Shown here one piece after another: positions 19,194 to 19,440 of a stretch of DNA of 64,000 nt. Under the pieces are notes generated by a model. The model was not told the DNA's origin, searched no databases, and saw nothing but the letters and a program-made list of their open reading frames with translations. Within the stretch, counting starts at the first letter, position 1. Each line of letters starts with the position of its first letter. Source of the DNA: Patescibacteria group bacterium (GTDB lineage Bacteria; Patescibacteriota; Minisyncoccia; Phycocordibacterales; JAKFXT01); assembly GCA_021731245.1 (NCBI GenBank), contig JAKFXT010000015.1:14889-78888 (forward strand), in the 5' to 3' direction. Position numbers and translations under genes: made by a program.

Positions 19194-19221
19194 TTGACTT
19201 TTGGCTCAAATTTGCTATAAT
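19194..19221 (+). promoter_or_regulatory. consensus promoter: TTGACT - 16 nt - TATAAT
   Basis: ttgact at 19194-99 and tataat at 19216-21, read directly from the sequence. Confidence 0.55.
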
Positions 19222-19226
19222 AGAGA

Positions 19227-19440
19227 GTAAGTGAGTGCTAACACAATCTTGTTGGTTCTAACGAATGTCTGCGAAAGAGCCCCTAAGGGAAACCTTGTGG
19301 GGCCTTTTCGTGCCCGCACATAGGCTTTTTGTTATACTTCGACTGAAGTCCTGATTATTCTTATGTATGGCTCCCGGCCTGCGCTCACTTAAGACATTAG
19401 TTTTGGAGCTAGCACCCGGGGGCCATATATCGGTGTAATT
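19227..19440 (+). ncRNA. candidate structured RNA: murB leader/riboswitch-like element, or an independent sRNA (for example 6S-like)
   Basis: Starts about 6 nt after the -10. The 5' segment GUAAGUGAGUGC (19227-38) pairs with GCGCUCACUUAA (19381-92) to close a roughly 165-nt domain. Inside is a hairpin GCCCCUAAGG-GAAA-CCUUGUGGGGC. It is followed by a short hairpin plus UAAUUUUUAUUU (terminator/attenuator-like) before murB. Confidence 0.3.

What the first reader, a model, noticed from the sequence alone, without database searches (positions are those of the whole stretch)
19194..19440. Promoter-driven, roughly 210-nt structured RNA upstream of murB (riboswitch-like leader or independent sRNA)
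A consensus TTGACT-16-TATAAT promoter (unusual in this AT-rich genome apart from the foreign cassettes) fires into a segment with a long-range closing helix (19227-38 with 19381-92), an internal hairpin GCCCCUAAGG-GAAA-CCUUGUGGGGC, further GC-rich pairings, and then a short hairpin plus UAAUUUUUAUUU just before the murB RBS/helix motif. The layout is aptamer plus terminator-type expression platform. Upstream of a peptidoglycan gene this could be a cell-wall-linked riboswitch, or a small RNA such as 6S.
Basis: partly seen in the sequence, partly recalled or inferred. Interest (0 to 1): 0.55.

Follow-up and report, generated by a model that had tools for sequence, protein, structure and literature searches.

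The report
Two base-pairing small RNAs upstream of murB
The "210-nt structured RNA" is really two neighbouring small RNA genes, conserved across a large group of uncultivated Patescibacteria (CPR), whose transcripts have co-evolved to base-pair; this RNA pair matches no Rfam family and no paper I could find, and it often sits at the front of the cell-wall gene murB.

Summary

- **RNA-A** (about 19227-19312) has the TTGACT-16-TATAAT promoter, a 5' GUGAGUGC segment, a small hairpin, a single-stranded seed and a terminator hairpin.
- **RNA-B** (about 19345-19449) has its own extended -10 (TGTTATACT). It is a 22-24 bp hairpin with a roughly 38-nt apical region and a U-run.
- **Conservation.** Over 100 Patescibacteria loci carry the pair, each RNA with its own promoter. 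RNA-A lies on the opposite strand in about 14 loci and about 1 kb or more away in 7.
- **Covariation.** It is strong for the RNA-B stem and for the intermolecular helices (cognate versus permuted partners, z = -10.4).
- **Known families.** No Rfam 15 family matches, and no paper was found.
- **Context.** The pair lies between a Wzy_C/TPR gene and (murB)-secA. murB directly follows RNA-B in about half of the pattern-found loci and in 7 of 7 loci fetched by MurB homology.

Best reading: an antisense-type small RNA and its hairpin target or partner, probably controlling murB in most lineages. Its function is inferred, not shown.

The parts
19194..19221 (+). RNA-A promoter: -35 TTGACT (19194-99), 16-nt spacer with TG, -10 TATAAT (19216-21)
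   Evidence: 11/12 match. It is identical in L001. A -10 scoring >=5/6 lies 6-10 nt before GUGAG in 70/87 homologues.
19227..19312 (+). RNA-A, a small RNA of about 85 nt. The 5' end is inferred from the -10 spacing and the 3' end from the terminator.
   Evidence: The same architecture recurs in 86 unique homologues.
19231..19238 (+). Segment a (GUGAGUGC) at the 5' end of RNA-A. It pairs with a' in RNA-B. In the window the pairing extends to 19228-19238.
   Evidence: 8 bp kept in 83/83 pairs, with the A+6/B-2 position covarying (GC 51, AU 23, GU 6). L182 has AUGAG/CUCAU, a double change.: -17.8 kcal/mol.
19238..19255 (+). Hairpin P1 of RNA-A (CUAACAC-loop-UUGUUGG). In free RNA-A it is extended by GAG pairing with the downstream CU(C/U).
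   Evidence: GAG is paired within the molecule in 67/86 single-sequence folds. The P1 sequence varies but a hairpin is always present.
19256..19270 (+). Segments c (UUCUAA, 19256-61) and b (AAUGUCU, 19264-70): the single-stranded seed of RNA-A
   Evidence: One search shows many fully compensatory variants; cognate versus permuted partners, z = -10.4, 0/10000.: -15.4 kcal/mol, 0/1000 shuffles.
19271..19311 (+). RNA-A terminator hairpin (GCGAAAGAGCCCC...GGGGCCUUUUCGU).
   Evidence: A 3' hairpin is present in 86/86 homologues. The scan flags it as a terminator in L123. In the window it has a bulge, so the simple scan did not list it.
19330..19338 (+). RNA-B promoter: extended -10 TGTTATACT with a weak -35
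   Evidence: Read from the sequence. L001 has TGCTATACT at the same place. A -10 scoring >=5/6 occurs in 63/103 homologues against 16% of control segments, peaking 42-46 nt before CUCAC.
19345..19449 (+). RNA-B, a long-hairpin RNA of about 100 nt. The 5' end is inferred from the -10.
   Evidence: The covariance model R1 gives one hit in the window, 19347-19450, 78 bits. See also alignment A1.
19354..19377 (+). 5' strand of the long stem H4 of RNA-B
   Evidence: 22 pairs, 19 with changes on both sides; 93.8% of all 27 modelled pairs (H4 plus the apical helix) are standard pairs against 72.8% shuffled and 39-47% slid (H4 alone 92.3%).
19381..19388 (+). a' (GCGCUCAC) in the apical region of RNA-B. 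It pairs with RNA-A segment a. In free RNA-B, GY.CUC pairs with GAG...RC instead.
   Evidence: the Y37:R79 pair covaries (CG 68, UA 26, UG 11).
19392..19409 (+). b' (AGACAUU, 19392-98) and c' (UUGGAGC, 19403-09). They pair with b and c of RNA-A.
19410..19415 (+). Conserved unpaired junction strand UAGCAC (consensus U-N-R-C-N-C)
   Evidence: Part of this conservation was imposed by my search pattern. It is looser in the loci fetched by MurB homology.
19416..19449 (+). 3' strand of H4 (19416-39) followed by the U-run UUUUUAUUUAU (19439-49), which looks like a terminator
   Evidence: a U-run is present in the window and L001 but absent in 46/51 murB-linked homologues.
19475..19488 (+). Putative leaderless promoter of murB: -10 TACAAT (19475-80) lies 5 nt before ATG 19486
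   Evidence: 18/57 genes have a -10 box 4-9 nt before the ATG, against 3-5% of controls. This is inference only.
19486..20523 (+). murB (UDP-N-acetylenolpyruvoylglucosamine reductase), the gene that most often follows RNA-B
   Evidence: FAD_binding_4 plus MurB_C.

Best explanation
The region encodes two separately transcribed small RNAs that act as a pair.

RNA-A is an sRNA of standard build: a sigma-70 promoter, a 5' hairpin, a single-stranded seed and an intrinsic terminator. RNA-B is a roughly 100-nt hairpin with a long, structurally conserved stem (H4) and a roughly 38-nt apical region.

Proposed sequence of events:
1. The seed of RNA-A (b, AAUGUCU) nucleates on the open loop of RNA-B (b', AGACAUU).
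2. Pairing spreads into c/c'. To do so it opens two short GAG/CUC helices, one closing the base of RNA-A's own hairpin and one closing the RNA-B loop.
3. The strands swap partners, and the 5' end of RNA-A (GUGAGUGC) pairs with GCGCUCAC in RNA-B.
4. The result is a four-helix junction made of H4, a/a', P1 and c-b/b'-c'.

Shown here: both RNAs are conserved, each has its own promoter and terminator, the stem covaries, and the intermolecular pairing co-evolves.

Inferred consequence: in most murB-linked lineages RNA-B has no terminator and the murB AUG lies 1-30 nt after the stem. There RNA-B is the 5' leader of murB, and RNA-A binding probably controls processing, stability or translation of that mRNA. 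In this window RNA-B ends in a U-run and murB seems to have its own leaderless promoter, so the pair is probably a stand-alone module. In this window the coupling to murB would then be weaker or lost.
For: - **Two units.** Promoters and terminators are found for each RNA. RNA-A is on the opposite strand in about 14 of 87 loci and about 1 kb or more away in 7, five of them with an intervening gene.
- **RNA-B stem.** 19 of its 22 pairs change on both sides. The covariation score for the RNA-B structure (H4 plus the apical helix) is 0.561, against 0.19 shuffled and at most 0.175 slid.
- **A:B pairing.** More than 15 different b/b' helices are all complementary. Cognate pairs average -13.9 kcal/mol against -9.9 +/- 0.38 for permuted partners, 0/10000. 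In a/a', A+6/B-2 covaries, and L182 carries AUGAG/CUCAU.
- **Partner swap.** Position Y37 of RNA-B covaries both with R79 inside RNA-B and with RNA-A position +6. GAG is paired internally in 67/86 free RNA-A folds.
- **Strand specificity.** There are many G-U pairs, and the + strand folds at z = -6.5 against -1.75 for the - strand.
- **murB link.** 62 of 120 pattern-found loci and 7 of 7 loci fetched by MurB homology have murB directly downstream on the same strand. Two of those seven have lost the Wzy_C/secA neighbours. 46/51 murB-linked RNA-Bs lack a U-run. The AUG lies within 15 nt of the stem in 21/47.
Against: - No transcript data were available, so the ends and the separateness of the two RNAs in this window are inferred.
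- About half of the pattern-found members have no murB nearby, and about 8 are inverted relative to their neighbours. The pair must therefore have a role that does not need murB.
- RNA-A shows no co-evolution with the murB, secA or wzy start regions.
- RNA-A pairing does not invade stem H4, so how it would change murB expression is unclear.
- The three-part, pseudoknotted pairing with a conserved unpaired junction is more elaborate than usual sRNA-target pairs.
- The a/a' helix and the c-b/b'-c' helix may not be able to form at the same time.
- The metagenome set was collected with a sequence pattern, which inflates apparent invariance.
Confidence: 0.6

Rival explanations
1. A two-piece structural RNA. 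RNA-A and RNA-B would assemble into one folded particle, such as an RNP scaffold, a ligand sensor or a ribozyme. The function would lie in the four-way-junction complex itself rather than in regulating a target. The murB linkage would reflect co-transcription or conserved gene order.
For: - The pairing is three-part and pseudoknotted around a conserved hairpin P1, with a conserved unpaired junction strand U-N-R-C-N-C.
- Members stand alone with their own terminators, in either orientation relative to their neighbours.
- Both partners are conserved across MurB divergence down to about 40% identity.
- RNA-A has no co-evolving mRNA target nearby.
Against: - The conserved GAG/CUC nucleotides can be explained by the double pairing constraint alone.
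- Some related Patescibacteria lack the pair: L005 and L008, which keep the Wzy_C-TPR neighbour, and also L002, L015, L039 and L044. It is therefore not universal.
- No protein partner is encoded alongside it.
- RNA-A has the ordinary architecture of a regulatory sRNA.
Confidence: 0.2
2. RNA-B is a decoy (sponge) that titrates RNA-A, and the real targets of RNA-A are mRNAs elsewhere in the genome. The reverse arrangement is also possible.
For: - Stand-alone RNA-B genes with terminators exist.
- The RNA-B loop presents an accessible mimic of a target site that includes GGAG.
Against: - No second site matching the RNA-B motifs occurs in the 64-kb window.
- Seed-only hits in the window are at chance level.
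- The a/a' plus c-b pairing is tailored to RNA-B.
- This could not be tested genome-wide.
Confidence: 0.1
3. One reading: one roughly 210-nt cis-acting riboswitch leader of murB, with an aptamer closed by the 19227-38/19381-92 helix and a terminator as expression platform. A variant of this model calls it a 6S-like RNA.
For: - The tandem arrangement on one strand is the commonest layout.
- The whole region folds well.
- A U-run follows the last stem in the window.
Against: - There is an internal terminator and a second promoter.
- The halves sit on opposite strands or about 1 kb or more apart in about 20 loci.
- Half the members are not next to murB.
- No Rfam riboswitch or 6S match appears at E <= 10.
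- 46/51 murB-linked copies have no terminator platform.
Confidence: 0.05
4. A DNA-level element (cruciform or recombination site), or a type I toxin-antitoxin locus in which RNA-B encodes a small peptide.
For: - The region contains a long inverted repeat.
- The window has a 23-codon ORF inside RNA-B (ATG 19369 to TAA 19438-40).
- RNA-A of L062 gives a weak OrzO-P antitoxin hit, 31.7 bits against a cut-off of 60.
Against: - G-U pairs and the strand asymmetry argue for RNA rather than DNA.
- The ORF is broken by a 1-nt deletion in L001, and most homologues have no start codon.
- The OrzO-P hit aligns mainly through the terminator hairpin.
Confidence: 0.03

Closest known systems
Plasmid antisense control RNAs that form four-way junctions with their target hairpin (CopA/CopT of plasmid R1; also hok/Sok, RNAI/RNAII), from my own knowledge
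   Same: - A small terminator-ended RNA attacks the loop of a target stem-loop.
- Pairing then spreads by opening the upper stems.
- The end state is a four-helix junction, with the lower target stem kept.
- The target hairpin lies in the leader of a downstream gene.
   Different: - CopA/CopT and the other plasmid pairs are cis-encoded and perfectly complementary, and they belong to plasmids.
- The window pair is made of separate chromosomal genes that are only partly complementary (three short helices).
- The 5' strand pairs with the 5' strand, which gives a pseudoknotted topology.
- In many genomes the target is a free-standing RNA.
Trans-encoded base-pairing sRNAs with a 5' hairpin, a single-stranded seed and a terminator, including sRNA/sponge pairs and the divergently encoded type I antitoxins (IstR-1/tisB, Orz/Zor)
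   Same: - RNA-A has this architecture.
- The gene lies next to its partner, often divergently.
- The complementarity is short and imperfect.
   Different: - No toxin ORF is conserved.
- The OrzO-P model scores below its threshold.
- The partner is a structured hairpin RNA.
- Three co-evolving helices replace the usual single seed duplex.
- The host is an SD-poor genome rich in leaderless genes, where the usual mechanism of blocking the ribosome-binding site does not obviously apply.
Two-piece structural RNAs (U4/U6 snRNA; two-piece tmRNA; crRNA:tracrRNA)
   Same: - Two transcripts are held together by helices that flank an internal hairpin of one partner, as the U4 5' stem-loop sits between U4/U6 stems I and II.
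- Both partners are conserved together.
   Different: - There is no sequence or family relationship.
- No associated protein genes are present.
- No tRNA-like or guide features are present.
Riboswitch or attenuator leaders of cell-wall genes (glmS ribozyme, ydaO/c-di-AMP)
   Same: A structured RNA lies upstream of a peptidoglycan-pathway gene, and in the window a hairpin plus U-run precedes that gene.
   Different: - There is no Rfam match.
- The sensing partner here is another RNA, not a demonstrated metabolite.
- The halves are separable genes.

Membership tests
Riboswitch (cis-acting aptamer plus expression platform) | One contiguous transcript carries both the aptamer and the platform | tested here: not met
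   There is an internal terminator and a second promoter. The halves are on opposite strands in about 14 loci and about 1 kb or more apart in 7.
Riboswitch (cis-acting aptamer plus expression platform) | Consistently placed in the 5' UTR of a functionally coherent gene set | tested here: inconclusive
   murB follows in 62/120 pattern-found loci and in 7/7 homology-found loci. About 52 loci have no murB nearby, and some are inverted relative to their neighbours.
Riboswitch (cis-acting aptamer plus expression platform) | Match to a known aptamer family (ydaO/c-di-AMP, glycine, glmS and others) | tested here: not met
   Rfam 15 gives nothing at the gathering threshold or at E <= 10 in the window region, or at E <= 5 in 14 further loci.
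Riboswitch (cis-acting aptamer plus expression platform) | Binds a small-molecule ligand | not testable with these tools
   This needs in-line probing or ITC.
6S RNA | A roughly 180-nt rod with a large central bubble that mimics an open promoter, and a match to Rfam 6S models | tested here: not met
   There is no 6S hit. RNA-B is a roughly 100-nt hairpin whose loop is occupied by RNA-A, and RNA-A is a two-hairpin sRNA.
Base-pairing sRNA and its RNA target | The sRNA has its own promoter and intrinsic terminator | tested here: met
   (sequence-level evidence only).
Base-pairing sRNA and its RNA target | Complementarity to the partner is maintained by compensatory changes | tested here: met
   z = -10.4, 0/10000; L182.
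Base-pairing sRNA and its RNA target | Binding changes expression of the target gene | not testable with these tools
   This needs reporter fusions or RNA-seq.
Antisense four-way-junction complexes (CopA/CopT type) | Loop-initiated pairing that opens the upper stems of both partners while the lower stem is kept | tested here: inconclusive
   The GAG/CUC helices in free RNA-A (67/86) and free RNA-B (105/105) use the same nucleotides as the intermolecular helices, and Y37 covaries with both partners. The three-dimensional feasibility and the order of events were not tested.
Antisense four-way-junction complexes (CopA/CopT type) | Cis-encoded, fully complementary antisense pair | tested here: not met
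   The two are separate genes with only three short complementary segments.
Type I toxin-antitoxin (Zor/Orz-like) | A conserved small toxin ORF in the target RNA, and an antitoxin matching the family model | tested here: not met
   The window ORF at 19369-19440 is not conserved. OrzO-P scores 31.7 bits against a cut-off of 60, aligning mainly through the terminator.
SRP (4.5S) RNA | A roughly 100-nt hairpin with a GNRA tetraloop and conserved domain IV loops, and a match to the Rfam SRP models | tested here: not met
   There is no SRP hit at E <= 10. The apex is a variable 11-22-nt loop that pairs with RNA-A.

The most novel reading that the evidence does not exclude
RNA-A and RNA-B are the two halves of a previously unrecognised structured RNA particle specific to Paceibacteria-type CPR bacteria. 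In this reading the particle is a bimolecular, pseudoknotted four-way junction with a conserved unpaired junction strand. It would bind a ligand or protein, or catalyse a reaction linked to cell-envelope synthesis, rather than being a simple sRNA-target pair.
Probability: 0.2. Interest if true: 0.85.

Novelty: new variant of a known kind. Interest (0 to 1): 0.65.

Why it matters
I found no published account of RNA regulators in CPR/Patescibacteria, a large group of uncultivated bacteria with very small genomes. I found no Rfam family and no paper for this element.

This is a widely conserved pair of RNAs with unusually clean comparative evidence that they bind each other. It is tied in many lineages to murB, an essential peptidoglycan gene.

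It offers three things:
- a concrete, testable entry point into post-transcriptional control in an SD-poor group with many leaderless genes;
- a natural example of a trans-encoded RNA pair that appears to form a strand-swapped four-way junction;
- a new family that could be added to the covariance-model libraries used for annotating CPR genomes.

Tried and rejected
- **Rfam.** The whole window at the gathering threshold gave only tRNA-Thr. Region 19100-19560 at E <= 10 gave only noise hits, mir-363 and bxd_5. Fourteen further loci gave only terminator-driven noise, OrzO-P and CsrC.
- **tRNA/tmRNA.** ARAGORN found none in the region. My guess of a tRNA between RNA-A and RNA-B in L178 was wrong.
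- **Partner search by duplex energy.** A brute-force scan timed out. A restricted version was swamped by GC-rich chance hits. I replaced it with a rule requiring a complementary 6-mer, GTGAG and a terminator.
- **RNA-A alignment.** The MAFFT alignment was too gappy for RNAalifold and gave 0 pairs. I used single-sequence folds instead.
- **Other RNA-A targets in the window.** Seed-only duplexes were at chance level, and RNA-B itself is not the top seed-only hit.
- **Co-evolution of RNA-A with start regions.** None was found for secA or wzy. The apparent murB signal (z = -3.9) vanished once the RNA-B loop was excluded.
- **Identities considered and rejected on features.** SRP RNA, RNase P, tmRNA, a group II intron 5' end or domain V, CsrA-binding RNA, type VIII TA, and a coding ORF in RNA-B.
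- **Other.** Ten pattern hits in viral contigs were chance matches with no flanking stem. A look-up of the window's own MurB found no contig on record.
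Full report
**1. Observation**

The window comes from a Patescibacteria (CPR) genome of the Paceibacteria/Parcubacteria type. The nearest MurB relatives are labelled Patescibacteria, Paceibacterota, Taylorbacteria, Parcubacteria and Minisyncoccia.

- The TTGACT-16-TATAAT promoter at 19194-19221 scores 11/12 with a TG extension.
- The + strand of 19220-19450 folds far better than shuffles (z = -6.5, 0/200). The - strand does not (z = -1.75).
- The 19227-38 / 19381-92 complementarity is 11 bp and -17.8 kcal/mol, with 0/1000 shuffles as good.
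- The GC-rich hairpin with a GAAA loop and the final U-run are both there.

Rfam 15 finds nothing in this region, either at the gathering thresholds or at E <= 10.

**2. The region is two genes, not one**

The closest genome, L001 (MurB 72% identical), keeps the whole region at 79% identity. In more distant Patescibacteria only the 3' part stays directly upstream of murB. In L007 and L010 the 5' part lies on the opposite strand, and in L010 it has its own TTGACA-17-TATACT promoter.

Reading the window in this light gives two RNAs.

*RNA-A (about 19227-19312):*
- 5' GUGAGUGC (segment a, 19231-38)
- hairpin P1 (19238-55)
- single-stranded UUCUAA-CG-AAUGUCU (segments c and b, 19256-70)
- terminator hairpin GCGAAAGAGCCCC...GGGGCCUUUUCGU (19271-19311)

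*RNA-B (about 19345-19449):*
- its own extended -10, TGTTATACT (19330-38)
- long stem H4 (19354-77 with 19416-39)
- an apical region carrying GCGCUCAC (a'), AGACAUU (b') and UUGGAGC (c')
- an unpaired strand UAGCAC
- a U-run (19439-49)

The "short hairpin plus U-run" is the base of H4.

**3. Distribution**

About 100 of them have the long flanking stem. The ten hits of a looser pattern in viral contigs do not have it.

A covariance model of RNA-B (R1) behaves as follows:
- It finds one copy in the window, at 78 bits.
- It finds nothing significant (only two marginal hits, E = 0.12 and 0.75) in 37 MurB loci from other bacteria and from the six Patescibacteria loci (L002, L005, L008, L015, L039, L044) that lack the element, or in the chance pattern hits.

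Because the pattern fixes many positions, I also fetched seven loci purely by MurB homology (48-57% identity). All seven carry RNA-B just upstream of murB (50-89 bits), and six carry RNA-A nearby. They include variants outside my pattern: UAGGAG, GGAGU and CUCAU.

**4. Each RNA has its own signals**

*RNA-A.* A -10 box scoring at least 5/6 ends 6-10 nt before GUGAG in 70/87 loci, usually with a recognisable -35. All 86 unique RNA-A sequences end in a GC-rich 3' hairpin followed by U's.

*RNA-B.* A -10 box scoring at least 5/6 occurs in 63/103 loci against 16% of control segments. It peaks 42-46 nt before CUCAC, about 7 nt before the stem base. A recurrent TACGCT variant appears in one subgroup.

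*Arrangement.* RNA-A lies 90-450 nt upstream on the same strand in most loci. It is on the opposite strand in about 14. It is about 1 kb or more away in seven, five of which have an opposite-strand gene in between. In L177 it is not within 2 kb. The A:B helices must therefore be able to form in trans.

**5. Structure and covariation**

*RNA-B stem H4.* The stem has 22 pairs, and 19 show changes on both sides. Across the 27 modelled pairs of RNA-B (H4 plus the apical helix), 93.8% of cells are standard pairs, against 72.8% in shuffles and 39-47% when partners are slid. On the same 27 pairs the covariation score is 0.561 against at most 0.19. The many G-U pairs make the structure strand-specific, which points to RNA rather than DNA.

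*Intermolecular helices.*
- The b/b' helix exists in at least 15 sequence versions, all complementary. Examples are AAUGUCU/AGACAUU, GAAAGUC/GACUUUC, GUUGUCA/UGACAAC, AAUGACU/AGUCAUU, AAAGAUCU/AGAUCUUU and GAAGGUCUA/UAGACCUUC.
- The c/c' helix varies as CUCCAA, UUCUAA, CUCUGA or CUUCAA against UUGGAG.
- Using one representative of each of 43 loop types, cognate A:B duplexes average -13.9 kcal/mol. Randomly re-partnered pairs average -9.9 +/- 0.38 (z = -10.4, 0/10000).
- The a/a' helix is an 8-bp core kept in 83/83 pairs. One position covaries (G-C 51, A-U 23, G-U 6; 80/83 paired against 65.6 in shuffles). In L182 there is a double change, AUGAG/CUCAU.

**6. How it probably works (inference from anatomy)**

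In free RNA-B the loop is closed by G-C, Y-R and CUC/GAG pairs, and the Y:R pair covaries (C-G 68, U-A 26, U-G 11). In free RNA-A the GAG of GUGAG pairs with a downstream CUC and so extends P1 (67/86 folds).

The same nucleotides form the intermolecular helices: RNA-A GAG pairs with RNA-B CUC, and RNA-A CUC pairs with RNA-B GAG. The same Y also covaries with RNA-A position +6.

I therefore propose this sequence of events:
1. The seed b, which is single-stranded in RNA-A, nucleates on b', which is unpaired in the RNA-B loop.
2. Pairing spreads through c/c' by partner swapping.
3. The a/a' helix forms.
4. The result is a junction of H4, a/a', P1 and c-b/b'-c'.

This double constraint would also explain why GAG/CUC hardly varies. 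The complex is formally pseudoknotted (order a...c-b against a'-b'-c'). Whether all the helices coexist is not shown.

**7. Genomic context and the murB question**

The pair sits between a Wzy_C (O-antigen-ligase-like) plus TPR membrane-protein gene, found in 74 of 108 unique loci, and (murB)-secA, with secA in 69 loci.

Evidence that RNA-B is linked to murB:
- murB follows RNA-B directly on the same strand in 62 of 120 pattern-found loci, and in 7/7 homology-found loci.
- Two of those seven, L177 and L180, have different neighbours.
- In murB-linked loci, 46/51 RNA-Bs lack a U-run.
- The murB AUG is 1 nt past the stem in six loci and within 15 nt in 21/47. In those genomes RNA-B is most simply the 5' leader of murB.

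Evidence that the pair also works without murB:
- About 52 loci have no murB nearby, and RNA-B there usually ends in a U-run.
- About eight such pairs are inverted relative to the flanking genes.

The window belongs to a minority type. RNA-B has a U-run, and murB has a TACAAT box 5 nt before its ATG. This genome uses SD sequences in only 4/57 genes. In 18/57 genes a -10 box lies 4-9 nt before the ATG, against 3-5% of controls. murB here may therefore be leaderless with its own promoter.

RNA-A shows no co-evolution with the murB, secA or wzy start regions.

**8. Comparison with known systems**

Functionally the closest analogues are antisense RNAs that attack a target loop and end in a four-way junction (CopA/CopT type). 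Close too are trans-encoded sRNAs located next to their partner. Those comparisons rest on my own knowledge.

It is not a member of any of these families:
- It is not cis-antisense.
- It has no conserved toxin ORF.
- It has no Rfam match.

It fails the defining features of a riboswitch (one contiguous RNA), of 6S RNA and of SRP RNA. Searches of the held literature found no description of it.

**9. Verdict**

The finding is real and well conserved. It is best described as a new family of two interacting small RNAs in Patescibacteria.

What the pairing achieves remains inferred. The candidates are murB control in most lineages, a stand-alone module or decoy in others, or a two-piece structured particle.

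Noticed in passing
whole window (e.g. 32371, 33785, 42518, 44174, 45869, 61653, 19486): Only 4/57 long ORFs have an SD-like sequence. By contrast, 18/57 have a -10 box (>=5/6 match to TATAAT) ending 4-9 nt before the ATG, against 3-5% at control positions. This suggests widespread leaderless mRNAs in this organism.
   Followed up: partly
window 19369-19440: A 23-codon ORF (MAPGLRSLKTLVLELAPGGHISV) lies exactly inside RNA-B. It is destroyed by a 1-nt deletion in L001 and is absent in most homologues, so it is probably fortuitous.
   Followed up: yes
L006 3880-3985; L114 1340-1440; L141 2690-2820; L171 1475-1565; L177 1905-1995: Long, near-perfect inverted repeats (40-60 bp arms) are inserted between RNA-B and murB in several loci. 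They could be MITE-like elements or additional leader hairpins. Their origin and function are unexplained.
   Followed up: no
L059, L076, L126, L145, L157 (about 1 kb between RNA-A and RNA-B): An opposite-strand gene of about 360 aa (cluster c4, whose sequence looks like a sensor histidine kinase) is inserted between RNA-A and RNA-B. This shows that the pair tolerates separation. The gene was not annotated with Pfam.
   Followed up: no
class-2 loci, e.g. L081, L084, L128, L147 (about 42-46 nt before CUCAC): Stand-alone RNA-B genes share a recurrent TACGCT hexamer (for example GCTACGCTT) at the -10 position instead of TATAAT. This may be a lineage-specific -10 variant.
   Followed up: partly
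L066, L085, L089, L110, L124, L158 (about 190-300 nt after RNA-B): In six loci the gene downstream of RNA-B is an ABC1/UbiB-type atypical kinase (PF03109) instead of murB.
   Followed up: partly
P0015, P0027, P0066, P0068: Some Paceibacteria MurB homologues are 472-477 aa long, about 130 aa longer than usual. I did not examine the extension, which could be a mis-called start running into the RNA-B region.
   Followed up: no
window 55912-55987: tRNA-Thr (TGT) is the only Rfam or ARAGORN hit in the 64-kb window. No SRP, RNase P, tmRNA or 6S gene lies in this stretch.
   Followed up: yes
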